Shown here: piece after piece, positions 4,020 to 61,450 of the stretch
Layout of the letters: each line of letters opens with the position of its first letter
Position numbering within the stretch: the first letter of the stretch is position 1
DNA from: Sphyrna mokarran
Taxonomy: Eukaryota
Assembly (NCBI GenBank): GCA_024679065.1
Contig: JAGIQG010000019.1
Location: forward strand, 31,992,001-32,056,000
Direction: 5' to 3'
Length of the DNA stretch: 64,000 nt
Notes under the pieces: model-generated
Told to the model about the DNA's origin: nothing
What the model saw: only the letters and a program-made list of their open reading frames with translations
The model's database searches: none
Made by a program: the position numbers and the translations under genes

Positions 4020-5378
4020 TAAAATATTCATTGTCTTTTGTTCATTTAATTGCTGAGAAGATAAGATGACCAATTTTATCTCCATCATTTATATGCTGGG
4101 AGACTTGCAAGAGGAACAACGCCTCAAGTAAAGGAACCATCGGTGTTCAATGTAACTTGCATTTATACAACACATTAGAATTACATCTTTCAGGTGTAAT
4201 TAAACTAAAATGGACGCTGAGTCAAGGAAGAGATACTAGTTGGGGTGATCAAGTGCTTGGAATTAGATCTGAGGGAGGAGAAAAGGGACGTGGAGGATTT
4301 TAAGATAATTCAATAGTTTGTGCCCTAGAAGGCTTAAGGTGTGATCATTGAGAAACTCTATATATGCAGATTGTATAGCTAGAACCAATATTTAGAAAGC
4401 CTTCAAGAATGATGGGTCATGCTTTCTGGACTGGTAGAGCTGCAGCTAAAGACATAGAAACTTGATGGGAGCGATTCAGAGTCATTATGAGAAATATGAA
4501 AATGGTTTATGGATAGCAACACCATTTAGGCCTTTGGTGAGAAAAAGGCATTGAGACATTAGCTTCAAGGATAGAGCAGTTAAGTGTGAGGCTTTTGAAA
4601 ATGGATTCATGGTATTTTGAAATTGAGGATAACAATATCTGAAGATATAATGGTGAACTAGGAAGATAGAGGAGCTTGGCGAGGATACAAAGCAAGATGA
4701 GAAAACTGCCAAGGCACATGAGTTAAGAGTGGGACAGTCTGAGACGCGATTGGAATTAGTGGGTAAAGAGAACAGTAAATCAATAGCTGATTGGAGGCCT
4801 TGTTTCTGGTGGCAAAAAAAAAGTCATACATGAGTTTATTGCAGTTTCAAATTGGAGCTGAGAAGTTTAGAAAGGATATTGATGGTGGAAAAAAGATGCA
4901 AGTGTTTTTAGCAAAGGAACACATGGGCTGATGGTGTTAGCTGTGAATCAGCCAAATATTGTGCTAGAGAGAAAATCAACTCAGTAATCAAGTCTTTATA
5001 GCTTGGCCAGGTGAAACTGGAAAAAAGGACTATACTGTGGGGAATCTTCCAGCATGGAGGAGTCTAGACATTCAGCTGGGGACAAGAGCATCAAAAGAAG
5101 TGAGTGGTTGAGTAAACAGGCAGCTGAGCACTATAGCAAATGACTAACAGCTATGCATTGAGTTTTGATAGCTCCTTTCTGGGGCTATTGCATAAGGAAG
5201 TGTTTGTTTGTTCTTGATGTGTGCCACTGGCTAGGCCACATTTTTGCCCATTCTTAATTGCCCTTGGGAAAGTGGTGGTGAGTTGCTACCTTGAATCATA
5301 TGATATCAGTACATCCACAGTGCTGTAAGAGAGGGAGTTTCATAATTTTCACACATGGACAGAGAAGGTTGATATATA

Positions 5379-6626
5379 GAACATAGAACATTACAGCACA
5401 GAACAGGCCCTTCGGCCTTCGATGTTGCGCCGACCAATATAAAAAGCAATGCCCCTCCAAACTAAACCATTCCCTTCTCTTCCATATACTTATCAACTAA
5501 CCTCTTAAACGCCACCAAACTTGGCGCATCTACAACTGCTGCAGGCAGGGCATTCCACTCCCGAACCACCCTTTGGGTAAAGAACCTACCTCTGATATCC
5601 GTCCTATAACTATCACCCCTTAATTTAAAGCTGTGTCCCCTCGTGCTAGCTTTCTCCATCCTAGGAAAAAGGCTATCACTGTCCACCCTATCTAAACCTC
5701 TAATCATCTTATATGTTTCGATAAGGTCCCCTCTTAGCCGCCTCCTTTCTAACGAAAACAACCTCAAATCCCTCAGCCTCTCTTCATAAGACCTGCCCTC
5801 CATACCAGGCAACATCCTGGTAAACCTCCTCTGTACCCTCTCCAATGCCTCCACATCTTTCTTATAATGTGGGGACCAGAACTGCACACAATACTCCAAG
5901 TGCGGCCGCACTAGAGTTTTGTACAGTTGCAACATGACGTTGCGGCTCCGAAATTCAATCCCCCTACCAATAAAAGCTAAGACTCCATATGCCTTCTTAA
6001 CAACCTTCTTGACTTGACTGCCTACTTTCAGGGATCTATGCACATACACACCAAGATCCCTCTGTTCATCAAGACTACTAAGAATCCTACCATTAGCCCT
6101 ATACTCTACACATTTATTATTCCTGCCATAGTGCATTACCTCACACTTTTCCACATTAAACTCCATTTGCCACCTCTCGGCCCAGCTCTGCAACTTGTCC
6201 AAGTCCCTCTGCAAACTATAACACCCCTCTTCACTATCTACCACTCCACCGACTTTAGTGTCATCTGCAAATTTACTAATCCATCCTTCAATACCCTCAT
6301 CCAGATCATTTATAAAAATTACAAACAGCAGGGGCCCCAAAACAGACCCCTGAGGTACACCACTTGTCACCGAACTCCACGATGAATATCTCCCATCAAC
6401 CACCACCCTCTGTCTTCTATCTGCTAGCCAATTCCTAACCCAATTAGCTAAATCACCCTCTATCCCATACATCTGCATTTTCTGCAGAAGTCTTCCATGG
6501 GCCACCTTATCAAACGCCTTACTAAAGTCCATATATACCACATCAACCGCCTTACCCACATCCACCTCTTTAGTCACTTTTTCAAAAAAAAAAGTGACTA
6601 AAGAGGTGGATGGGGGTAAGGCGGTT
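5379..6626 (-). mobile_element. Young 5'-truncated CR1 (HER1-like) LINE nested in an older LINE 3' end
   Basis: uninterrupted RT ORF ([32 protein letters not shown]) ending at 5462; agaacat-type tail at 5379-5395; host repeat at about 5195-5378 resumes at 6627. Confidence 0.95.
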
Positions 6627-9367: not shown

Positions 9368-9590
9368 TTAATAGAATCCCAACAGTGCAGAAGGAGGCCA
9401 TCAGGCCCATCGAGTCTCCACTGACAACAATCCTACCCAGGCTCGATCTTTGACATTCCACGTATTTACCCTGGTAATCTCCTGACACTAGGTGGCAATT
9501 TAGCATGGTCAATCCAGCTGACCTGCACATCTTTGGACTGTGGGAGGAAGCTCATGCAGACACTGAAAGAATGTGCAAACTCCACATAGG
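9368..9590 (-). mobile_element. HE1-like V-SINE, 5'-truncated
   Basis: acctgcacatctttggactgtgggaggaa V-domain plus tagaatcc tail. Confidence 0.8.
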
Positions 9591-10974
9591 CAGATACCTG
9601 TTATTATTTTGTTATTTCTTCTGTCACTTGATCATAATCTTGGACGATAAAATCATAAAAAATAAGGACAGGAGTAGGCCATTTGACCCTTTGAGTCTGC
9701 TTCATCATTCAATAGGATCATAGCTGATCCTCAGATCCACTTTCCTGCCCCTCCCTGGAATCCTCAATTCCCTTTCTGATGCTGGAATTAAACCCAATGC
9801 TGTGAGGCAACAGTGCTAATGACCATGCCATCCAGTGCCAATGGACAAGTAACCCAGAAGTCCAGGCTAATGCCTTGGAGATACTACTGGTGAAATTCAA
9901 ATTCAAATGCATAAAATTTAGAATTGGAAGCCTCAATAATGGGGACCATGAAACTATCAACACTTGTTGGAAAAAACCAACTCAATCACTAATGCCCTTA
10001 AGGGAAGAAAATCTGCCATCTTTACCTGATCTGGCCTGCATGACCTCAGATCCACAGAAATATGGTTGACTTTTAACTGTCCTGAGAAATGGCTGAGCTA
10101 GCCACTTGACCCAAAGGGCAATTAGGACAACAAATTTTAAAAAAAATTGTAGGTGCCCAAATCAATCTTTCAAAATTCTCTTGGTTCAGGAATTGTTCAT
10201 TTAAATTGGAAAATTGTACATATTACTCTGCTGTGTAAGGTAAAATAAAAGATGGATGTTCATTATTGGGAAACTAGTTAAAGTCTATAATCAAGGATAA
10301 GATGATTCTTCATCTTGAACATTTTCAGCTGGTTAGAGTGAGCCAGTCCAGATATGTAACTGTTTGATTTTCCACCATTTTTCTGTTTTTTGTTTAATCG
10401 TGCCTGGTGCATCTGAGTGTTTTTACAGGCGATTAAAATAATAGACATGGGAATGCCTATGAATGTCACTTAAAATAGATTTCCGAAGGCATTCGATTAA
10501 AAACTCTCAAAAGAGACTTGCCTATAAGAAGCTCATGAGTTGAAGACAACTTACTGATCTGGTTAGGATATATGCTGAGCTCCAAGCAACAGTGCAAGGA
10601 TAATTTACAGAATATGACTAGTAGTCACCCATAGGGTGGTGCAATACTATTCACTGCATATTTTAGATAATGAGATGGAAAGCACTACTTGATAGGGTGG
10701 TGGATACATATATGGTAGTAGCCTTCAGAGGAGAATTGGATAATTATTTGAGGGAGATAAAATTGTAAGCATTTGCAGAAAGAGCTGGGGTCTCGTATTA
10801 ACTAGATGTAAAAGAGCTGGGACAGTCTTGATGGATAGAATGCCCTGTGCTGTCCAATTCTCTGATTCTTTGGGTTAGTGTTTCGTGTGCAATAACAATT
10901 TGTATTTATATAACATCTTTAATAAATCTTAGGATGCTTCACAAGTGAAATATAAAGCAAAGTTTGACACCAAG

Positions 10975-12200: not shown

Positions 12201-12860
12201 TCACATATGAAAGAACAAAAAAGAGAACAATATTGGGACAGATGGCCAAGTATATAGACAGGAAGATGGGGGTTAAAGGATGTCTTAAGGGAAGAAAGAG
12301 GTTGAGTGACTCAGGTGTTTCAGGAGAGAATTTTGGAGCTTAAGTTAAGCAGCTGAAGATGTGGTCACTGATGGTGGAACAAATAAAATTTGGCATGCCA
12401 GATCTGGAGGCCAGAATTAGATAAAGTTGTAGGGCTGCAGGATATTAGAAATGGGAAGGAGCAAGGGTAGGAAGGGATATTAAAACAGAATTTTAAAATC
12501 AACGTGCTGTGTTACAGGGAGGCCATGTAGGTCATGGTGATAAATGAATGGGACTTGTTGTGAGTAAGGCCTGGAGCAGCAGAATTTCAGGTGATCAAGT
12601 TTATGGAGGGTAAAATGCCTTATGCTGGCCAGGAATATGTTGAAATAGTCACGTATGCAGGTAATGAAGGACATAAATGATGTTTCAATAGCAGATGGAC
12701 TGAAGCAGTTGGACCTGGATGATTATATAGAAGGGCAAATAAGCAATCCTGATAATGCCGTGGATGTGGTCAGAAGTTCATCTTGGTCAAATCACACCAA
12801 GGTTGTGAACAATCTGTTTTAGCCTCTGTGCTGGATGGAGAATGGAGCTTGTAACAGCAG

Positions 12861-13160
12861 GGTGGCACAGTGAAACCCACAATCAGTTGGGTCACTTCCT
12901 TGTTGAAGTTTGAACATTCTCCCCACGTCTGCGTGGATTTCCTCTGGGTGCTTTGGTTTCCTGGTGTTGTGAGACTTACAGTTCCTCCCACAGCCCAAAG
13001 ATGTGCAGATTAAGTTGACTGACCATGGTAGGTTGACTCCAGTGTCAGGGGATTAGCAAAGTAAATGTGAGAGGTTACTGGAATAGGGCATGAGTGGGAT
13101 CATGGTTGGTGCTGACTCGATGGACCAAATGATTTCCTCCTGCATTGTCAGGATTCTATC
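12861..13160 (+). mobile_element. HE1-like V-SINE inside an old antisense L2-like remnant (about 12260-13350)
   Basis: ggtggcacagtg head; ttctccccacgtctgcgtggatttcctctgggtgc V-domain; gattctat tail. Confidence 0.75.
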
Positions 13161-17069: not shown

Positions 17070-19200
17070 CGCAGCTAAATTTAGAGATGACACCAAGATA
17101 ATTGTCGAGAAGATAGTCCCTCAGTGAATGAGCAAAAATTTGGCAGCATATAATGTCCACTTTAGCAGGAAGAATAGAAAAGCAATACACTATTTAAATA
17201 GAGACAGATTGCAGAATTAAATGGTATGAAGAATCTGGGTGTTCTTGAATAATTGCAAAAAGTTAGTATACGGATAAAGTAAGTGATTAGGAAGGCAAAT
17301 GGAATATTGGCATTTATTGCAAAAGGAATGGAATATTAGAAATGGAGAAATTTTACTGTAGCTATGTTGGCCACTGTAGTTATGTAGAGCTTGGTAAAAG
17401 CACATCTGGACTAATGTGTGCTGCTTTGACCTTATTGCAAAGTAATATTTATTTGATCTCCTTATTTAAAAAAAATTCTTTTGATCACTCTGACTTAATT
17501 CATTCCTGGGGTAAAGAGCATTTCTTATGAAAGGCTGTAACAGTTAGGCCTGTACCTGTTGAAGTTTAGAAGAATGAAGTGACCTTGAAACATAAGATCT
17601 TGAGGAGACTCAGTAGGATGGATACCAGGATGATGTTTCCTCTTGTGGGGAAAACTAGAATTAGCCACATAGTTTAAGGATAAGTCGTCTAATCTTTTAA
17701 GATCAAGATCAGAAGACATTTTTCCACGTGGAGTTTCCTTTCCCAGAAAATAGTGGAGGCTAGGTTTTTATTCAAGGCAGAGTTAGACAGATTTTTGTTG
17801 AACAAAGGAGTCAAGGGTAATGGGAAGCAGACAGGAAAGTGGAGTTGAGCCTCAGGCAGAGGGAGAGTCAATATGGTTTTGTGAAAGGGAAATTACATTT
17901 AACCAATTTATTGGAGTCCTTTGTACATACAAGTATATGCTATAGATAAGGGGAGACTGGTGGATGCACTGTACTTGCATTTTCAGAAGATATTTGGTAA
18001 GCTGCCTTTTCAAAGATTACTGCAGAAAATAAAAGCTCATGATGCAGGGGGAACATATTGGCTAACTATCAAGAAAACATAGCCATAAATGGGTAATTTG
18101 GTAAGATGTCATGTGTCACAGGATCTCAACTTTTTTATGATTTATGTAAAGGGACCAAAGGTATGGTTGCTAACTTTGCTGATGACAGAAAAATATGTAG
18201 CAAAGTTAGTTGTGAATGGAGCATAAGGAGGCTACATGAAGGATGTAAATAGGCTAAGTGAGTAAAGATCTGGTCAATGGAGCATAATATAGGAAAGTGT
18301 GAAACTCCATTGTGGCAGAAAGAATAATAAAACATATTTAAATGGTGAGAGATTTGCAGGCTCTGATTCAGATGGATCTGGGTGTCCAAGTGCAGGTACA
18401 ACAAATAATTAAATGTGATTGTTTATCCTGAGAGGAATTGAATACCAAAGAAGGGAGGTTATGTCTTGGTTGCACAGGCATTAGTGAGACTGCATGGAGT
18501 AACGTTACAGCCCTGGTCTCTTTATTTAATGAAAGAAACATAAAAACACTAAAGCACAAACAGGCCCTTCGGCCCACAAGTTGTGCTGAACATGTCCCTA
18601 CCTACTAGGCTTACCTATAACCCTCTAAGTTCCATGTAATTATCCAAAAGTCCCTTAAAAGATCCTATTGGATCTGCTTCAACCGCCACTGCCAGTAGCC
18701 AATTCCACGCATCCACCACCCTCTGAGTGAAAAGTAAATGTATTGAAAGTGGTTCTGAGAAGGTTTACCAGATTAATATCTGGAATAGGCTAGTGTATCA
18801 TGAGGAAAAATTGTACAGGTTAGGTTTGTATCTATTGGAGTTCAGAAAAGTAAGAGGCGACTTGATTGAGATAGTTAAGACCCTGGGGGATCTGACAGGG
18901 TAGATGTGGAAACGTTCCCTCTTGTGGGGAATCTGGAATGGTCATGGTTTATAAGTAAATGGTTGGCCATTTAATACAGATTGAGAAGCTTTTTTCTTAC
19001 CGTTTAGAGTCTTTGTATCTATCTCAAAACACTGGAAGCAGAACTTTTGAACATTAAGGCAGAGCTAAGGGGATGAAAGTTTCAGTATTTAGGAATATGA
19101 AGCTGAAGTTACAATTAGATCAGCCATGATCTTATTGAATGTTGGGGCAGGTGCGAAGGGTTGAATGGCCTAGTCCTGCTCTCATGTCTTATGCTCCTAA
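17070..19200 (+). mobile_element. Two decayed CR1 ORF2 3' fragments, with a younger antisense CR1 tail at about 18535-18730
   Basis: FADD-like (gatgacaccaagat; tttgctgatgacaga) and CR1 3'UTR motifs (gatcagccatgatcttattgaatg). Confidence 0.7.
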
Positions 19201-19605: not shown

Positions 19606-19890
19606 GGAAAACCAGTAGCACGCTGTGCCTAAGCCTGCTCTCGCCCAGGCCCCAAGAGCCAAAGCCGTTATATCTCACTCTGCTTCCCTACTCACTCACA
19701 TTGCCTGCTCCCGATGCTGCCCGTTGTCTACTGCCACTTTCTTTTTATACTCCCCGGTTCTCTTCCCAGCTAGCCCCACGCCTAACTATAGCAGCAAAAA
19801 GCATTCAAAAAGAGAGAGAGGAAAAAAAAGCAAATTGAAAAATTCACACAGCCACCAGCACTTCCAAACACTCTGTCCCAGAGAACAATG
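19606..19890 (-). mobile_element. Isolated CR1 LINE 5'UTR fragment with TATA box
   Basis: reverse complement aligns with 39605-39782 (gtagaca.cgggcagc.tcgggagc.ggca; gcagagtgaga; tgggcgag.gcaggctt). Confidence 0.8.
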
Positions 19891-20847: not shown

Positions 20848-21047
20848 ATAAGAAGTCTCGCACCAGGTGGAAGTCCAACAGGTTTATTTGGTAGCAAATA
20901 TCACTAGCTTTTGGAGCTCTGCCCCTTTGTCAGGTGAGTGAGGAGTTCTGATCACTAATGGCTAAAGTTGACCAGGTCAACTTTAACCTGGTGTTTTGAG
21001 ACTTCTTACTGTGTTTACCCCAGTCCAATGCTGGCATCTCCACATCA
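20848..21047. mobile_element. Palindromic Penelope-like repeat with a decayed hammerhead motif
   Basis: taagaagtctc...agacttctta inverted ends; minus-strand tcac-CTGACAA-a-ggggc-aga-gctcc-AAAA-gcta-gtga at 20901-20937. Confidence 0.7.
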
Positions 21048-21146
21048 TTTGTATAAAGATTCAGACTTCAGCAGAATTTCAGGTGAACTGTGAAACAAAA
21101 CTTTTCATCTGTATTATTATGAGTTCTTAGCTTTACCACAGGGAAA

Positions 21147-23644
21147 TAAAATTTTTGCAGGAAAGACACGTGCCGGTAAGGAGGAAGGATGGGAAAGGTT
21201 GGATTAGAGAACCGTGGGTTACTAGGGATGTTGAGGACTTGGTCAGGAAGAAGCGGGAGGCGTACGTTAGATCTAGGCAACTGGGGACAGAGGCAGCGCT
21301 GGAAAAATATAGAGAGTGTGGATGGGATCTTAAAAGGGGTGTCAGAAAGGCAAAAAGGGGCCACGAAATGGCTTTGGCAGGTAGGATTAAGGAAAATCCT
21401 AAGGCATTTTACTCCTATGTAAGGAGCAAAAGGATGGTTAGAGGGAAGATTGGATCTCTCAGGGACAGAGGAGGGGAACTATGCTTAGAGCCTGAGGGAA
21501 TGGGGGAGATCCTGAATGAATACTTTGCGTCGGTATTCACGCAGGAGAGGGGCCTGATGTCTGATGCCGGCTTTGAGGAATTTGAGGACCCGTTAAAGGA
21601 AATAATCATTACGAGGGATGAAGTGTTGGGGCTTTTAGGTAGCATAAAGACTTATAAAGCTCCGGGGCCTGATGGTATTTATCCCAGGCTGCTAAGGGAG
21701 GTGAGAGATGACATTGCTGGGCCTCTGACGCAAATCTTTGTCTCTTCTTTGGACACAGGTGAGGTCCCAGAGGACTGGATGATTGCAAATGTAGTACCGT
21801 TGTTTAAAAAGGGTCAGAGGGATAACCCAGGGAACTATAGGCCGGTGAGCTTGACTTCAGTTATAGGTAAGCTAATGGAGAGGATTCTCAGGGACAGGAT
21901 GTATGAGCATCTGGAGCGCTGTGATCTGATCAGGGATACGCAGCATGGCTTCGTTAAGGGGAGATCATGCCTTACGAATCTAGTGGAATTTTTTGAAGAA
22001 GTGACAAAAACAGTTGATGAAGGACAAGCCGTTGATGTCGTCTATATGCATTTCAGTAAGGCGTTTGACAAGGTCCCTCGTGGTAGGCTGATAGAAAAGG
22101 TGAAGGCGCATGGGATACAGGGCCAGGTATGTAGATGGGTTGAGAACTGGCTTGGGAGGAGACAGCGGGTAGTAGTGGAAGGCTCTTTTTCCAACTGGAG
22201 GTCTGTCACTAGTGGTGTGCCACAGAGCTCTGTACTAGGACCCCTTCTATTTGTGGTGTATATAAATGACTTGGAAGAGGGGGTAGGTGGTGTGATCAGC
22301 AAATTTGCTGATGACACTAAGATGATTGGATTGGCGGGTACTGAGGAGCAGTGCCTGGCAATACAACATGACATAGATAGGCTGGTAGATTGGGCAGATA
22401 GATGGCAAATGAAATTTAATCCGGATAAATGCGAGGTGATGCATTTTGGCCGGAATAATGTAGAGGGGAGTTATAGGATAAAAGGTAAAACTATCCGGAG
22501 TATAGAGATGCAGAGAGACCTGGGGGGTGCAAGTTCACAAAAACCGTATGGTAAGTTAACCTTCATAGGAAGAGGTATAGAATACAAGAGTAGGAGTCTG
22601 ATGTTGCAGGTGTATAGAACGTTGGTTAGGCCTCATCTGGAGTACTGCGTCCAGTTCTGGTCGCCGTACTACAGGAGGGATGTAGAGGCCCTGGAGAGAG
22701 TGCAGAGGAGATTTACCAGGATGCTGCCTGGTATGGAAGGGCTGTCTTACGAGGAAAGGTTGAACGCACTGGGGTTGTTTTTCCTTGAAAGACGTCGGCT
22801 GAGAGGGGATCTATTAGAGGTATATAAGATTATGAGGGGTATAGATAGAGTAAATGGTGGTAAGCTTTTTCCACCATTAGAAATAGATAGAACGAGGGGT
22901 CACTGGCTCAGGGTGAGGGGGGCTATGTATAAGATGAATATTAGAGGCCAGTTTTTCACACACAGGGTAGTGGGGCTGGGAATGCACTGCCGAGTAAGGT
23001 GGTGGGACAGGCACACTAGGGTTGTTTAAAGGTCTCTTGGACAGCCACATGAGCGGTCTACAGATAGAGGGATATAGCAGGACTGTTTGAATATCGGGAG
23101 GACCAAATAGTAGTAGACTATCTTTAGTTTCGTCTCGGGAATGTCTTAGTTTTTTTTAGCATGTTTAATTAAGTCTTATTTGTTTTCGCAGGCAATTCGG
23201 TCCACCTTGTTGACCAACAAGGGGCATGCATGCGGCATGTCGTGCGAGAGCTGCTCTTGGAGGTTGCTTCAGGAGTTGCCTAGTGCTTCACGTCGTCAGT
23301 GTATGCTTACACTGGACCATCTGATGGGCAACATGACAGCTCAGAGACTATCGCTGTTGCTGTGCTGACACATGGATTTGGGCCTGTGTCTGCGGGAGTT
23401 TGCGTGTTCTCCCCGTGGTTGTGTGGGTTTCCTCCAGGTGCTCTGGTTTCCCCCCACATCCCAAAAATGTGCTCTTAGGGACAATTTGTTACCCAATCAG
23501 CCTATGTTGGTCCCTATATGGGAATCTTCAACAATAGGCATAGCCTAAAGTCAAGGATATGTCATTAAGATGTTAAGACGGCAGCGTGGGCTCGTTGGGC
23601 CGAAGGGCCTGTTTCCTGTGCCGTGTTGCTCTTTGTTCTTTGTT
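21147..23644 (+). mobile_element. Young 5'-truncated CR1 LINE (same family as 39535-44073) with long 3'UTR
   Basis: 624-aa ORF2 piece with [23 protein letters not shown]-like and FADD motifs; (ctttgtt)n tail; near-identical to 41630-44073. Confidence 0.96.
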
Positions 23645-23739
23645 ATAGCATGAAAAATTCTTAGCTAAAGAAATAAAATTTTAGCAGACAAGATTGTTGT
23701 AAGTTTGTTAATTTCTTTCTTTCTTTCTTGTCCTTACAG

Positions 23740-25654: not shown

Positions 25655-25830
25655 GTGGCACAGTACTGCTGCCTCAGTAGCAGGGATGTGAGTTTAGTTC
25701 CTGGGTTTGGCTCACTCTGCATGGGGTTTCCTCCCATATTCTGGGAGATGTGCTGGTTAGGTGAATTACTATGCTGGAGTGTGGTTCAGGATGCAGTGTG
25801 CATGTAAGCCTACTTGTGACTAATAAAACT
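25655..25830 (+). mobile_element. Decayed V-SINE
   Basis: gtggcacagtactgctgcctca head; gtttcctcccatattctgggagatgtgctggttaggtgaatt; gcctacttgtgactaataaa tail. Confidence 0.65.
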
Positions 25831-26644: not shown

Positions 26645-26862
26645 AAATGTAGATATGCCAGTGTTGCACTGGGGTAGGCACAGTAAGTAATCTCTCAACA
26701 CCAGGGTAAACTCCAGCAGGTTTATTTGTTTGTGTGCGCTTTCAGAACACTGCTTTTATCAGGTGAGAGTGGACTCACCTGCTGAAGAGATACCATTGAA
26801 AGCTCATACTACCAAATAAACCTGTTGGAGTTTAACCTGGTGTTGAGAGACTTCTTACTGCA
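26645..26862. mobile_element. Palindromic Penelope-like repeat copy
   Basis: cagtaagtaatctctcaacaccagg...cctggtgttgagagacttcttactg inverted arms, with decayed CTGA..GAAAGC cores in both. Confidence 0.7.
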
Positions 26863-27167
26863 CCTAGAATGATTAGCAAAAGGAGAAGCCCAATGGGAAG
26901 TGAAATAGCCAGTGATTGTTCTGGCTCTTTAGGGAGCTCTCAAAATCAGCTATGACAGAATATGGTGTGCCTATCCCAATGGGAATAAAGCAGATGAAGA
27001 TTAAGAGAAAATAAAGGGCAGAGAAATAATGAGATTTAAGTATCGTGTACATGAATCATTCATTAAAAACTAGTGGTAAAGTAATAAATAAAGCTTTATT
27101 CTCATGCAGGAATGCAGAGGGAAGTTTTCTTTCTATTCTACAGACAGGTGATCAGAGTCCATTTGGA

Positions 27168-33427: not shown

Positions 33428-33557
33428 GTTTTTATATGCTATGTTTGTGATCAGAACTCCCAATCACTTGATAAAGGAGCAGCGATTCGAAAGCTAGTGG
33501 TGTTTGCTACCAAATAAACCTGTTGAACTTTAACCTGGTGTTGTGAGACTTCTTACT
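33428..33557 (+). mobile_element. Single arm of the Penelope-like hammerhead repeat
   Basis: cac-TTGATAA-a-ggagc-agc-gattc-GAAA-gcta-gtg, then gctaccaaataaacctgttgaactttaacctggtgttgtgagacttcttact. Confidence 0.72.
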
Positions 33558-33872
33558 TTGTTTCCAGAATCTTACACAGGGGGAGGCCATTCATCCCATT
33601 GTGTCTGTTCAATTTGGTCCCATTATCCAGCCTTTCTCCATTACCCTGAAAAATTAGACTTCGAGTTCACCAGCCCAATCTTTAAAGTTCTTAGCAATAC
33701 CAATTCCATCAGCTTTTCAATTTGTTCATTCCAGATCTTCCTGATAAGCTGTATGAGAAAATTCTCATTCCTCCTCTGCTTTATTTACCAATTATTTTAA
33801 ATCAATGATATTTTGTTATTGACTGACCAATTAAAAGTTTCTCCCCAATTGCCCCAAGGATGGAGTGAGTCA

Positions 33873-34139: not shown

Positions 34140-36760
34140 ACTGTACAAAGGCGAGGCTGAAGCATTTGCAATCACCTTCAGCCAGAAGTGTTGAGGGTAT
34201 ATAATCCCTCTCAGCCTCCTCCTGAGGTACCAGCATCACAGATGCCAATCTTCAGCCAATTCGATTGAAAAAGAACAAAGATCAAAGAACAATACAGCAC
34301 AGGAAACAGGCCTTTCAGTCTGTACTGCTCATTGGTCCAACCAGACCATTCGTTTGTATCCCTCCATTCCCCGTCTCTTCAAGTGACTATCCAGTTAAGT
34401 CTTAAATGATCTGTGTGTCCGCCTCCACCACCCTGCTTGCCAGTGCCTTCCAGGCTCCCACCACCCTCTGTGTAAAACACGTCCCTCACCCCCCCTCACC
34501 TTGAACCTGTGACCCCTTGTGTTCATCACCTCTGACGTGGGAAAAAGCTTTCCACTGTTCATCTATCTACGCCCTTCATAATTTTATAGACTTCCATTAG
34601 GTCTTTCCAGAGAGAACAACCCCAGTTTACCCAATCTCTCCTCGTAGCTAAGACCCTCTATACCAGGCAACATCCTGGTAAATTTTTTCTGTACTCGCTC
34701 CAAAGCTTCCACGTCCCTCTGGTAGTGTGGAAACTAGAACTGGATGCAGTACTCCAAATGTGGCCTAACTAAAATTCTATACAGCTGTAATATCAGATGC
34801 CAATTTTTATACTCTATGCCCCATCCTATAAATGCAAGTATGCCATATGCCTTCTTCACCACATTCTCCACCTGTGATGCCACCTTCAAGGATCTGTGGA
34901 CTTGCATACTCTGGTCCCTCTGTGTGTCTATACTCTGGATGGTTCTGCCATTAGTTCTATCAAAACGCATCACTTTGCATTTATCTGGATTAAATTCCAT
35001 CTGCCATTTCTCCGCCCAATTTTCCAGCCTATATCCTGCTGTATTCTCCGACAATGTTCATTGCTATCCGCAAGTCCAGCCATCTTTGTTTCCTCTGCAA
35101 AGTTACTGATCACACCAGTTATACCTTCTTCCAAATCATTTACATATATCACAAATAGCAGAAGTCCCAGTACAGAGCCCTGCGGAACATTACTAGTCAC
35201 AGACCTCCAGCCAGAAAAAGACTCTTCCACTACTACCCTCTGTCTTCTGTAGCCGTTCCGTGTTACATCAAGAAATGGCTAAAGATGCTGAATATTACAA
35301 AGAGTATGCACCCTGACAATACTCTAGCAATGGTATTGAAGGTAAGTGCTTCAGAAATAGTCATGACCCTAGCCAAGCTGTTCCAGAACAGCAAAACATG
35401 AGCACGTACCTATCAATGTGGAAAATTGTCCAGATATGTCCTGTTCAAAAAAAGTGGAAAATCTAACCTGGCCAATTACTGCCCCATCAGTCTACACTCG
35501 GTCATCAGCAAATAATGGAAGGGTTATTGATAGTAACACTTACTCAGCAATAACCTGCTGATAGGCACTCAATTTGAGTTCTGCCAGGACCATTCACCTC
35601 CTGATCTCATTACAGTCTTAGCCCAAACACGGACTGAAGAACTGAAGTCAAGAGGTGAGGCAAGAGTGAGTGCCCTTAGCATCAAGGCAGCATTTGACCA
35701 AATGTGGTCAAGAGCCCTAGCACAACTGCAGTCAATGAGAACTGCAGAAAACCTCTCCATTGGTTGGAGTCATACCTAGCACAAAGGAAGATCATTGTGA
35801 TTGGTGGAAGGGAGGCATCTCAGTCCCAGGACATCACTGCAGGAAGTTCTCAGGTTATTGTCTTAAGCCTAACCATCTTCAGCTACTACATCAATGACCT
35901 TCCCTTTCCAAGATCCGAAGTGAGGGAAGTTCGCTGATGATTGTGCAAAGTACAGCACCATTCACGACTTCTCAAATATTGAAGCAGTCCATGTAGGCAT
36001 GGATAACATTCAGACTTGAGCAAATAACTGGCAAGTAACATTTGTGCTACACAAGTGCAAGCAATGACCATCTTCAATCTAGCAATTTTCTCTTGACGTT
36101 CAATGACATTGCCAATGCTAAATCCCCAACTATTAACATCCTGTGAGTTACCATTGACCAGAAAATTAACTGAACCAGCTATATAAATACTGTAACTACA
36201 AGAGGTCAGAGGTTGGAACCTCTCTGATGTGGAACTCACCTCGAGCTCCCTAAAACCTAGTCACCATTTACAAGGCTCAAGTCAGACGTATGATGGAGCA
36301 GCCCCCACTTGCCTGGATGAGTGCAACTCCAACTATTCTCAAGATGTTCAATATCATTTAGAGCAAAACAATCCATAAGATTGGCATCCCTTCCACCACC
36401 TTCAGCATTCACTCTCTCCACCATTAATGTAAAGTAGTAGCAGTGAGTAGGATCTACACTGCAACTCACCAATACTCATTTGACAATACTATCCAAACTG
36501 ACAATCTCTACCTCCTAGGACAAGGAATGCGTATGCATCACCTGGAGATTCCCCTCAAAGTTATAAACTATCCTGACTTGGAACCATCTTGCTGTTCCTT
36601 CACTGTTACTGGATCAAAATCCAGGAACTCCTTCTGACAGCACTCTGGGTATAACTACACAAGGTAAACTGAAATAGCTCAAGGAGGCAACATATCACCA
36701 TCTTCTCGAGGGGAATTAGGGATGGGCAATGAATGCTGGCTTAGCCATTGACATCCATAT
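34140..36760 (+). mobile_element. Old CR1-superfamily LINE interrupted by a younger antisense CR1
   Basis: RT remnants (aattactgccccatcagtcta = NYxPISL; gttcgctgatgattg = FADD); tail aattagggatgggcaatgaatgctgg. Confidence 0.7.
34268..35250 (-). mobile_element. 5'-truncated CR1 LINE, frameshifted
   Basis: ORF pieces [28 protein letters not shown]; aagaacaaaga tail. Confidence 0.9.
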
Positions 36761-37290: not shown

Positions 37291-38078
37291 GTGGGTATAG
37301 ATAGAATAAACAGGGTTAAGCTTTCTCCTAGGATGGACTCGAATAGCACGAGGGGTCACGGGCTTAGGGTGAGGGGGGCAAGGTATAATTTGGATGCTAG
37401 AGGGAGTTTTTTCACACAGAGGGTGGTGGGGGTATGGAATATGCTGCCAAGTAAAGTGGTGGAGGCAGGCACTCTGGAGTTATTTAAGAAATACTTAGAT
37501 GGGCACATGAACAGAATGGGAATGGAGGGGTATGGAAAACTGATTTAAAATCGGGATCATAGCCTTGGGAGTCCCTGGGAAGTGTGTAAATAGGTGATGA
37601 TATTGATGTACTTGTTTTTATCCTACAGGTGCTTTGGTCCACCTTGTCGTCTAACAAGGGGCATGCACAAGATGGGTCATGGGAGGGCTGCTCTTGGATT
37701 TTTTTCGAGAGTATCCTAGTGCTTCACGTTGTTAGTGTATGCTTGACCTGGACCATTTGATGGGCAACACGACAGCTCAATGACTATTGCTGTGCTGTGC
37801 GGATGCATGGATTTGGGCCTGTGTCTGTGGGAGTTTGCACATTTTCCCCGTGCTTACTTGGGTTTTCTCCAGGTGCTCCGGTTTCCTCCCACATCCCAAA
37901 GATGCGCTCTTAGGCTAACTGGCAAAACAAATTCTCCCTAAATTGTCTCAAATTTGGTTTTTAATCCATAGATCTATAAACATAGATAGGGATCGCGGGT
38001 AGAGGTGGGAACATCAGGGTGGCGATGCAGGCTCATTAGGCCGAAAGGCCTGTTTCCCGTGCTGTTTTGTTCTTTATT
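37291..38078 (+). mobile_element. 3' end of a diverged sister subfamily of the SINE-containing CR1
   Basis: GIDRINRVKL...TRGHGLRVRG...FFTQRVVGVWN; 3'UTR homologous to 23090-23640. Confidence 0.9.
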
Positions 38079-38789: not shown

Positions 38790-39500
38790 GCTGTTAGCTA
38801 TAGTTCAGTTTGAGCACTTTCTCTGAGCCAGAGGTTTGAGCACATAATTGTCACTGGCATTGCAGCATCACAGAGTCAGCAGTGAGGGAGCACTAACGTG
38901 CCGTGGGGTCAACAACGAGGGTGCGCTGCCACATCATAGTGTCAGCAGCCAGGGAATGCTACAGGGTCGGAGTGTCAGAATGAGGGAGGATTACTGTGTC
39001 GTTGAGTCAGCAGCGTGAGAGGGATGCAGAGTTCAAGGGTCAGTAGCTAGGGAATGTTGCAAAATCATAGGGTCAGTTGTGAGGGAGTTCTGATGTGTGG
39101 CAGCGTCAGTGGCAGATGAGAGCTGCAATATGAGGAAGTTAGTGGCGAGAGTGTGCTACACTGCTGATGAATCAGTAGCCTGAGCATGCTGCATTGCCAG
39201 AGAGCCAGCAGTGAGGGGATCTTGCACAGCATGGGTGGCAGTACCAAGGCAGCACTATCTTATCAGAGGGGCAGTGCATAGCTAGCACTGCACTCTCGAG
39301 AGGTTACTTCTGAGAGAATTCTATAAAATTTGAGATATTTCTTTTGGATGAAATTTTATGCTCCATCTGCTTTATCAGGTGGATGTAAAAAGATCCTTTG
39401 GCATTACTTTAAAACAGCACTGGCCTCCAGTGTTATGCCAAAATTCATTCCTTGATCAGCATCATTAACTCAGATAACCTGGCCATATATCTCATTATAC
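38790..39500 (+). mobile_element. DeuSINE (SacSINE1/AmnSINE1-like) element with an internal degenerate tandem array
   Basis: repeated gtcag.agtgaggga.tgctgca-type units, then tcaggtggatgtaaaagatcctttggcattacttt. Confidence 0.55.
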
Positions 39501-39830
39501 CAGTGTTGGACTGGGTGAACACAGTAAGAAGTCTGTGTTTTAATTAACAATAGTTTTAGGTCGCGAGGGTTTGTTGTTTATTTTGGCGCTCCGTAGCAGG
39601 AGATAGGCGCGGGGGCTGCTGGGAAGGGAGCGCGGCATTATATAAAGAAGGCCAAGGTAGACAGCGGGCAGCGTCGGGAGCGGGCAGTGGAGTGAGGCGG
39701 GGAGCAGAGTGAGAGCTGTAAGGGCTTAAGCTCACTGGGCTTGGGCGAGCGCAGGCTTGGACACAGTAAGTTACTGGATTCCTGTCCCACCAAACCTCTA
39801 GTGCCCATACCTCTAAAGAGGGTCTAGAAA

Positions 39831-60105: not shown

Positions 60106-60150
60106 CTGAAATGAAAATCTGTTTTTTAATACATGTTCCTTCACAGATGA

Positions 60151-60443
60151 ATCACAGAATTCCTACAGTGCAGAAGGAGGCCATCGACAACAATTCCGCC
60201 CAGGCCTTATCCCCTCTGACAACATGCAATTATCCTGCTAATCCCCCTAACTTAACATCTTGGGGAAATTTAGCATGGCAATCAACCTAACCTGCACATC
60301 TTTGGACTGTGGGAGGAAATTGGAATACCCAGAGGAAACCCACACAGGCATGGGAAGAAACTCTACACAGACAGTGATCCAAGAATTGAACCTGGGTTCC
60401 TGACACAATGAGACAGTACAGCTAACCACTGGGCCACCTTGCC
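60151..60443 (-). mobile_element. HE1-like V-SINE, full length
   Basis: ggcaaggtggcccagtggttagc head with B-box-like aggttcaattc, V-domain and tail. Confidence 0.85.
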
Positions 60444-61450
60444 ATCTCTCTGAAGAACAGAAACAATTAACAAAGCCTCTAATTATAGCTGCAATATTCA
60501 AACACCAACTAATAAAGCAATCTGACAAAATCATACAAACCAAAAAGACTGAGCAATTAACACAGTGCCCTCCATCTTTCAGGTCAGCATGATGCCACTA
60601 GGAGCATGTCAGCATACATTCACCAAAATGATGGTTTAAATTACAAGTAACAATTTTACACATTAGGGTAGTACTCATGGAATTTAGGGAGATTTGAACA
60701 ATTTAGGTATATGCTGTCTATTGTCGGTTGGGAAACCTAGGATTTAGAAACATTATACAAAATTTAGAGCCAGGTCTTTCAGAAGTGATGTTAGGAAAAA
60801 TATTTACACGCAAAAAGTGTCTAACCATCACCTCTTCACATTCAACTGCATTACCTTTGCTGAATACCTCAAAATCAACATCCTGGAGGTTACTATTGAT
60901 TAGAAACTTAACTGGTCAGTCACAAATACCAAACAAGTAAAGATAGTCAGAAGCTGGTCATGAGTCATCTCCTGAATCCCCAAAACATCTCCAGCACACA
61001 TCAGCAATGTCATTTAATTCACTCTATTTGCTTAGGTGAGTATAGTTGCATCATTTAAGAAGTTTGACATAATCCAGGACAAAACAGACCATTGATCAGC
61101 ATCTCATTCAATTGCCTAAACATCGACTCTCTTCACCACCAGAGTCAGTCCCCATTGTTTGCAATACCAACTGGCTGGCACCTGGTGTCTACATGCCCAA
61201 TGTCTTTAATCTGTAACATTCATTCATGCTGCGATTGCCTGTAGTCTGTAATGCCCAATAATTACTTCGCAACATTCACAGTCCCACTGCCTGAAAAAGC
61301 TCAGTGTCTGTAAGCCCATTCAACTCACCCACCCGTCACCCACAATCCAGTGCCCACTTTTCCATTATTCAAACACCAACAGCCAAACTCATGCCACAAA
61401 CATCTCTATATTGTTACATTTCTTTTTCACATTGGCATCATGGTTAGTAC

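What the first reader, a model, noticed from the sequence alone, without database searches (positions are those of the whole stretch)
23325..23500. An entire V-SINE is built into the 3'UTR of an autonomous CR1 family
Seen in three independent insertions (about 23325-23490, 37762-37940, 43757-43935): after the ORF2 stop comes gggcaacatgacagctcagagactatcgctgttgc, a degenerate form of the HE1 tRNA head, then the V-domain (gagtttgc...ttctccccgtg...gtgggttt.ctcc.ggtgctc.ggtttcc.cccacatcccaaa), then the normal CR1 tail. Established: shark HE1 SINEs share their tail with HER1/CR1 LINEs. Inference: here the flow ran the other way. A LINE acquired its partner SINE as its 3' end, kept the V-domain, let the Pol III boxes decay, and remained active across at least two subfamilies.
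Basis: partly seen in the sequence, partly recalled or inferred. Interest (0 to 1): 0.7.

Follow-up and report, generated by a model that had tools for sequence, protein, structure and literature searches.

The report
LINE carrying a captured V-SINE
A family of self-copying shark-type jumping genes has built the front two-thirds of a parasitic short element into its own tail end and kept it well conserved, which offers a direct way to test what the long-unexplained conserved core of such parasites does.

Summary
Confirmed in outline, corrected in detail. Three independently inserted CR1 copies carry a V-SINE-derived segment in the 3'UTR; one is full length with a target-site duplication, and two subfamilies differ by 26-30% in ORF2. 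The segment is a tRNA-type head lacking about 18 nt around box B, the V-domain, and about 40 nt more. Three other CR1 3' ends in the window have short UTRs without it.

Corrections: the head starts 154-235 nt after the stop, not at it. 'Entire' is not shown: the distal ~85 nt show no homology to the window's free V-SINEs, and the tail is CR1-like rather than like theirs. The head is not simply decaying: block+head+V are 84% identical between subfamilies, against 70% in flanking UTR and 58% at third codon positions.

Best reading: a CR1 extended its 3' end over a V-SINE and kept the module as a cis-acting RNA element. No genome-wide census was possible. A 2016 paper states that such domains had not been found in LINEs.

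The parts
39535..44073 (+). Copy 3: full-length CR1 LINE, inserted into another repeat, 6-nt target-site duplication at 39529-39534 and 44074-44079
39766..39771 (+). Splice-donor-like hexamer in the 5'UTR of copy 3 (function not shown)
   Evidence: one of 3 GTRAGT matches starting within copy 3; another at 40797
39831..40589 (+). ORF1, weak OSK-domain match (an SGNH-type fold, recalled), consistent with an esterase-type CR1 ORF1
   Evidence: PF17182 E 0.0027, below the curated cut-off
40590..43602 (+). ORF2 of copy 3 (AP endonuclease + reverse transcriptase), frameshifted; stop at 43600-43602
   Evidence: PF03372 E 4e-11; RVT_1 E 1e-29 on copy 1
43603..43630 (+). Copy 3 spacer (80 nt shorter than in copy 1), ending in a polypyrimidine-CAG|G acceptor-like site (AG ends 43623)
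43631..43749 (+). Copy 3 conserved 120-nt foldable block of unknown origin ('X block')
   Evidence: no Rfam family
43757..43825 (+). Copy 3 remodelled tRNA-type V-SINE head; box A altered, box B region deleted
43826..43896 (+). Copy 3 V-domain core
   Evidence: by eye 65 of 71 to MER6 and 60 of 71 to Ac1 as printed
43897..44018 (+). Copy 3 post-V segment: first 40 nt homologous to free V-SINEs, remainder not detectably so
44019..44073 (+). Copy 3 CR1-type tail and short terminal repeats
21140..23647 (+). Copy 1: 5'-truncated copy, same subfamily as copy 3 (stop 23088-23090, X block 23199-23318, head 23326-23394, V 23395-23465, tail from 23589)
23091..23198 (+). Copy 1 spacer: probable decayed remnant of an ancestral short CR1 3'UTR, then the acceptor-like site (AG ends 23191)
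   Evidence: local z 3.6 and 3.1 against two short-UTR CR1s, -0.3 against the third
37293..38078 (+). Copy 2: short 5'-truncated copy of a second subfamily (stop 37546-37548, acceptor-like AG ends 37628, X block 37636-37754, head 37762-37829, V 37830-37900, tail from 38030)
50825..50935 (+). Tail-only fragment of the copy 2 subfamily, truncated downstream of the V-domain, so uninformative about it
   Evidence: (82% over 110 nt to copy 2)

Best explanation
An elasmobranch-type CR1 lineage lengthened its 3'UTR from about 60-90 nt to about 470-560 nt by taking in a V-SINE, and the whole LINE is copied as one RNA (shown: full-length copy 3 with target-site duplication). Most likely route (inferred): a master copy read through its own short 3' end into downstream DNA holding the X block and a same-strand V-SINE that ended in a CR1-type tail. 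Reverse transcription was primed at the distal tail and the old tail decayed behind the stop. The SINE's Pol III promoter was then lost (shown: box B deleted in all three copies), so the segment exists only as part of the LINE's transcript. The 265-nt module (X block, remodelled head, V-domain) has since been held under purifying selection in the master lineages as a cis-acting RNA element that helps the LINE RNA, for example in stability, export or particle assembly (selection inferred from conservation; the molecular role is a guess).
For: One unit. Shared derived deletion in the head. Head and V homology. Old-UTR remnant in copy 1, in register with the stop: 10 and 16 of 2000 shuffles against 2 of 3 short-UTR CR1s. 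V-to-tail spacing 122-129 nt against 113-115 nt in 3 of 4 free SINEs. Conservation between subfamilies (copy 2 vs 3): module 222 of 264 (84%), flanking UTR 99 of 142 (70%, p 0.0009), third codon positions 49 of 85 (58%, p 2e-6), four-fold sites 14 of 25; indistinguishable from codon positions 1+2, 133 of 170. The X block folds alike on the sense strand in all three copies (z -5.2, -3.9, -3.4; antisense -0.7, -1.8, -0.1).
Against: Only three copies from one window. The old-UTR remnant is absent from copy 2 (z at most 0.4), was spotted by eye before testing, and a pooled test against all three tails gave nothing (z 0.3, -0.7, -0.7). The distal 82-89 nt are not homologous to the free SINEs, and the tail resembles other CR1s more than those SINEs. 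The X fold has 0 of 44 pairs with two-sided changes. In a blind scan 15 of 210 windows reached z below -3 and the X block ranked 9th. The X block alone is not significantly more conserved than the flanks (p 0.12). The ORF2 tree does not resolve copies 1/3 and 2 as one clade against a V-less CR1.
Confidence: 0.55

Rival explanations
1. Same capture, different route: a V-SINE (or its head, V-domain and ~40 nt) entered the LINE's 3'UTR internally, by insertion or reverse-transcriptase template switch, upstream of the LINE's own tail, which was never replaced.
For: Tail 61-75% identical to short-UTR CR1 tails versus 45-60% to the free SINE tails. Homology to free SINEs stops 40 nt after V. No old-tail signal in copy 2. 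Template switching is the usual proposal for module exchange (PMC4758252, passages).
Against: It does not explain the copy 1 remnant, the matching V-to-tail spacing or where the X block came from. A partner SINE of this CR1 lineage would carry a CR1-type tail anyway.
Confidence: 0.3
2. The module is a passenger. Its high similarity between subfamilies comes from recent swapping of 3' modules between CR1 lineages (V-domain as a recombination hotspot), not from selection.
For: V differs by 8-15% between subfamilies, about as much as between copies 1 and 3 (10%). ORF2 of copy 2 is equally distant from copies 1/3 and from a V-less CR1 (70-71% vs 70%). The hotspot idea is in print (PMC5804259, passages).
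Against: Divergence is uneven across the module (X 21%, head 12-15%, V 8-15%) and both sides of it are far more diverged (spacer 65-75%, post-V 62-68% identity), which needs two crossovers. The remodelled head cannot be homogenised by free SINEs.
Confidence: 0.25
3. The ORFs sit inside an intron: a 5'UTR donor splices to the acceptor 7 nt before the X block, giving a ~0.6-kb non-coding RNA (leader, X hairpin, V-SINE, tail) that is the selected product, as a small-RNA precursor or a Pol II SINE-like parasite.
For: A YAG|G site after a pyrimidine run sits at the same distance from X in all three copies although the spacer diverges. A strict rule finds 19 such sites in 128,000 positions, 2 of them here (copy 1 fails the strict rule). 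A consensus donor lies in the 5'UTR. The long arm of X is a ~37-bp hairpin in copy 1.
Against: No leader-to-X junction copy in the window. The pyrimidine run may be the old T-rich tail. Rfam gives only a chance-level match (E 9.7). No RNA data were examined.
Confidence: 0.15
4. Reverse flow: the V-domain is native LINE 3'UTR sequence from which V-SINE bodies derive (an extension of Kojima's LINE-origin hypothesis).
For: PMC5786205 proposes LINE origins for SINE bodies (text parts 1-4 of 5).
Against: A broken tRNA-type head sits directly upstream of V. V-SINEs reach back to cnidarians (PMC4824008, passages) while 3 of 6 CR1 3' ends here lack V.
Confidence: 0.03
5. Artefact: segmental duplication, or separate SINE insertions into three LINE copies.
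For: V-SINEs are common in this window (4 free copies).
Against: Unrelated flanks, different 5' ends, a target-site duplication; same position, same head deletion and same X block in all three.
Confidence: 0.02

Closest known systems
V-SINEs, including HE1 of sharks and rays (partner LINE HER1; PMC3747384 table; PMC4824008 passages)
   Same: tRNA-type head followed by the V-domain; similar V-to-tail spacing; CR1-clade tail.
   Different: Here part of an autonomous LINE's 3'UTR, box B deleted, head remodelled, distal body not alignable.
MER6/MER6A MITEs (PMC6887750, text parts 1-3 of 5 and supplement passages)
   Same: A V-SINE without a working head carried and spread by another mobile element.
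   Different: MER6 is a non-autonomous DNA element with no RNA step and no sign of selection on V; here the host is an RNA-replicating, protein-coding LINE.
SINE-like sequence inside LINEs: Ingi-3_AC (Ceph-SINE/RTE-like stretch in the 5'UTR), RTE-1_DAn (tRNA-like stretch) (PMC5786205); SINEs built into BovB ends (recalled; paper not held)
   Same: Sequence flow from SINE or tRNA into a LINE has precedents.
   Different: None of these involves the V-domain or a CR1 3'UTR, or shows head plus conserved domain kept across subfamilies.
Canonical vertebrate CR1 with esterase ORF1 (PMC13343379, passages)
   Same: ORF1, endonuclease-RT ORF2, 5' truncation, short terminal repeats.
   Different: 3'UTR of about 470-560 nt against about 60-90 nt in three other CR1 copies of the window; that paper's main text mentions UTR once and does not describe this.

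Membership tests
CR1-clade LINE | ORF2 with AP endonuclease and reverse transcriptase | tested here: met
   PF03372 E 4e-11, PF14529 E 3e-9, PF00078 E 1e-29
CR1-clade LINE | Esterase-type ORF1 | tested here: inconclusive
   only PF17182 at E 0.0027, below cut-off
CR1-clade LINE | RT phylogeny within CR1 against reference clades | not tested
   No reference set held; the label rests on architecture, tail and recall
CR1-clade LINE | Retrotransposed as a unit (5' truncation, target-site duplication) | tested here: met
V-SINE-derived segment | V highly conserved domain | tested here: met
   (E 1e-16 to 3e-21); by eye 65 of 71 to MER6, 60 of 71 to Ac1
V-SINE-derived segment | tRNA-derived head directly 5' of V | tested here: met
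   ranks 3, 4, 10 of 127,926; by eye 24 of 34 to the Rhinella V-SINE head with one gap, 9 of 10 mismatches transitions. ARAGORN and Rfam see no tRNA
V-SINE (as an element) | Intact Pol III boxes A and B | tested here: not met
   box A 2-3 mismatches (free SINEs 0-1); box B 4-5 (1-2 in the two free SINEs with whole heads); region deleted. Box consensus recalled
V-SINE (as an element) | Moves independently of a LINE body | tested here: not met
   3 of 3 copies of X+head in the window follow ORF2; genome-wide not tested
HE1 | Body and tail match the HE1 consensus | not testable with these tools
   HE1 sequence not available. Against the window's free V-SINEs the distal body and tail do not match
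Known structured RNA (X block) | Rfam match | tested here: not met
   one match at E 9.7, antisense

The most novel reading that the evidence does not exclude
An autonomous vertebrate LINE has domesticated its parasite. The V-domain, a rebuilt tRNA head and a new 120-nt hairpin form a functional RNA module of the LINE, possibly released as its own spliced non-coding RNA when both ORFs are removed as one intron. The V-domain would then work at the RNA level, independent of Pol III, and could be tested in cis in a standard LINE assay.
Probability: 0.25. Interest if true: 0.8.

Novelty: new variant of a known kind. Interest (0 to 1): 0.55.

Why it matters
Why SINE central domains stay conserved for over 500 million years is open. 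[quoted passage not shown] PMC5786205 says the origins of conserved bodies are unknown. A V-domain kept in a LINE lineage after loss of its Pol III promoter is a counter-example to that statement, separates V function from Pol III transcription, and allows a simple cis deletion test. It also matters for repeat annotation, since such 3' ends would be split into LINE plus SINE and miscounted.

Tried and rejected
No whole genome is held. No read-based depth, variant or junction data were obtained, so copy number, the share of copies with the module and splicing stay open. One search listed 23 runs, 20 holding part of the stretch in 11 studies; none was laid, so they are no evidence. Pattern scans for the X block or head found 0 matches in viral contigs, metagenome contigs and prokaryote genomes. 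ORF2 as query gave 37 distant loci in metagenomes (best segments 30-70% identity); none matched the SINE or X profiles. It gave none in viral contigs. ARAGORN found no tRNA. In one search the head of the free SINE at 60k was mis-cut, so its whole-head alignments are void; 5'-half alignments to single old copies were weak (z -0.1 to 2.5) and were replaced by the matrix test. Searching the supplement of PMC13343379 for X-block and head motifs gave 0, but cells are cut at 400 characters, so its CR1 3' ends were probably not seen; that table may bear on novelty. SINEBase supplements were not readable. Ogiwara 2002 and Walsh 2013 are not held. Repbase and Dfam could not be searched. Hammerhead, HDV, SECIS and 5S readings of X were considered by eye and by Rfam and dropped. 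A resemblance of the X 3' arm to a microRNA seed (recalled) was not supported by Rfam. The CR1 5'UTR fragment at 19609-19787 was checked as a possible spliced or bipartite copy and is not one. Earlier findings: three look-ups returned nothing.

Full report
Observation. Heads start at 23326, 37762 and 43757, and V-domain cores lie at 23395-23465, 37830-37900 and 43826-43896. Each follows the C-terminus of an endonuclease-RT ORF2. The copies are separate insertions: downstream flanks are unrelated and the 5' ends differ. Copy 3 runs from 39535 to 44073, carries ORF1 and a frameshifted ORF2, and splits another repeat with a 6-nt target-site duplication; the modelled empty site aligns across the junction to 4 of 4 other copies of that repeat tested. 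So the SINE-like part moved as part of one LINE RNA. Copies 1 and 3 are one subfamily (96% over the ORF2 end); copy 2 is another (72-74%; 70-71%). A fourth fragment at 50825-50935 is truncated downstream of V.

Is it a V-SINE? The window holds four free V-SINEs (about 1862-2135, 9370-9600 and 60150-60449 on minus; 12851-13160 on plus). A profile of these four hits the three LINE UTRs at E 3e-21 to 1e-16. Against sequences printed in the supplement of PMC6887750, counted by eye, the copy 3 core matches MER6 at 65 of 71 and fugu Ac1 at 60 of 71. The head is also homologous. A matrix from the first 38 nt of three free heads places copies 3, 1 and 2 at ranks 3, 4 and 10 of 127,926 window positions. 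Copy 2 matches the printed Rhinella V-SINE head at 24 of 34 with one gap, 9 of 10 mismatches being transitions (by eye). Pairwise tests of the 5' half against single old copies were weak (z -0.1 to 2.5). All three heads lack about 18 nt where box B lies, and best box scores are 2-3 mismatches for A and 4-5 for B (consensus recalled).

How much of the SINE? Homology continues for 40 nt past V in copies 2 and 3 (0 of 1000 shuffles each; 97 of 1000 in copy 1). The next 82-89 nt score like shuffles (168-332 of 1000). The V-to-tail distance is 122-129 nt against 113, 114, 115 and 88 nt in the free SINEs. Tails of copies 1-3 are 61-75% identical to those of two short-UTR CR1 copies and 45-60% to the four free SINE tails. 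So about 180 nt are demonstrably SINE-derived; 'entire' is suggested by spacing only; and the donor was not the SINE family now free in this window, or its tail was replaced.

The head starts 235, 213 and 154 nt after the stop. In between come a spacer, a pyrimidine run ending CAG|G, and 7 nt later a 119-120-nt block found only in these three copies (3 strong profile hits in the window). In copy 1 the spacer aligns, starting at the stop, with the short 3'UTR of the CR1 at 34272-34352 (10 of 2000 shuffles) and of that at 18535-18618 (16 of 2000), but not with that at 5376-5464. Copy 2 aligns with none, and copy 3 has lost 80 nt there. I noticed this by eye after a pooled test had been negative, so it is suggestive only. 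The X block folds in all three copies into a closing helix, a short hairpin and a long arm, on the sense strand only (z -5.2, -3.9, -3.4). Against this, 0 of 44 pairs show two-sided change, 8 show one-sided change, 7 are broken in one copy and 1 is gapped. In a blind grid 15 of 210 windows reached z below -3, with X ranked 9th. Rfam finds nothing.

Conservation. Between copy 2 and copies 1/3, identity is 72-74% for the ORF2 end, 65-75% for the spacer, 79% for X, 85-88% for the head, 85-92% for V, 62-68% after V and 84-86% for the tail. For copy 2 vs 3 the module scores 222 of 264, against 99 of 142 in flanking UTR (p 0.0009) and 49 of 85 at third codon positions (p 2e-6); it is not different from first and second positions (133 of 170, p 0.13). 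X alone is not significant against the flanks (p 0.12); head (p 0.017) and V (p 0.0002) are. Hence the head was remodelled once and then held; it is not decaying. Three other CR1 3' ends in the window have 60-90-nt UTRs with no V. A five-sequence tree on 258 columns leaves copy 2, copies 1/3 and one V-less CR1 unresolved (the short 18k fragment was left out), so single capture versus module swapping is open.

Mechanism. Shown: a unit LINE whose 3'UTR holds a promoter-less V-SINE front. Inferred: direction SINE to LINE (about 0.9); capture by 3' read-through with decay of the old tail (about 0.55) rather than internal insertion or template switch; retention by selection on a cis RNA module (about 0.65) rather than recent exchange. 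CR1-group LINEs need their own 3' stem-loop (PMC4176376, passages, shown for zebrafish L2 elements), so a captured end must carry a tail that ORF2 recognises, which fits a partner SINE as donor. The acceptor-like site (19 strict matches in 128,000 positions, 2 of them here; copy 1 misses the strict rule) and a 5'UTR donor leave open a spliced non-coding product.

Known and new. PMC5804259 (passages) states that no conserved SINE domain has been found in LINEs. PMC5786205 (parts 1-4 of 5) compared Repbase LINEs and SINEs and found only RTE and Vingi 5' parts in SINE bodies, plus stray SINE- or tRNA-like stretches in Ingi-3_AC and RTE-1_DAn. PMC6887750 (parts 1-3 of 5) describes a V-SINE captured by MER6. 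PMC4758252 (passages and section 11 part 1), PMC4824008 (passages and section 13), PMC11481361, PMC5499810, PMC3531059 and PMC13343379 (passages) do not report a V-domain in a LINE in the parts I saw. Nine searches listed no such report. Subscription papers, Repbase and Dfam were not searched, and the CR1 library in PMC13343379 was visible only in cut form.

Verdict. A real feature and a new variant of a known kind of element chimera. It is worth a genome-wide follow-up because it contradicts a printed premise and makes V-domain function testable in cis. It is held back by resting on three copies. Interest 0.55.

Noticed in passing
window 19609-19787 (-): Solo 180-nt fragment 76% identical to the 5' end of copy 3, including a TATA-like box that lies inside the element; it stops near the donor-like site. 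A TATA box about 100 nt inside a full-length LINE is odd if transcription starts downstream of it.
   Followed up: partly
window 39500-39534 and 44074-44332; also 20850-21050, 26675-26866, 33428-33560, 49226-49381: Abundant short repeat occurring as direct and inverted pairs; copy 3 inserted into one of them. Not identified.
   Followed up: partly
window 21124-21150 and 23658-23685: Copy 1's 5' junction shares about 13 nt between ORF2 and the downstream flank, next to a 9-nt duplication: looks like microhomology-guided 5' joining.
   Followed up: partly
window 42670-42890 and 43450-43610 (+): Coding stretches of ORF2 fold more stably than shuffles (z to -5.8 and -4.8), more than the X block.
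   Followed up: no
window 62068 to about 63500: Near-perfect 14-nt tandem array.
   Followed up: no
window 12960-12985 (+): A free V-SINE has about 24 nt inserted in its V-domain that resemble the abundant short repeat.
   Followed up: no
window 25720-25775 (+): Weak V-domain fragment, E 0.0007.
   Followed up: no
L001-L037: CR1-like ORF2 fragments in metagenome contigs, 34 of 37 from one assembly, probably vertebrate DNA; none matched the V-SINE or X profiles.
   Followed up: partly
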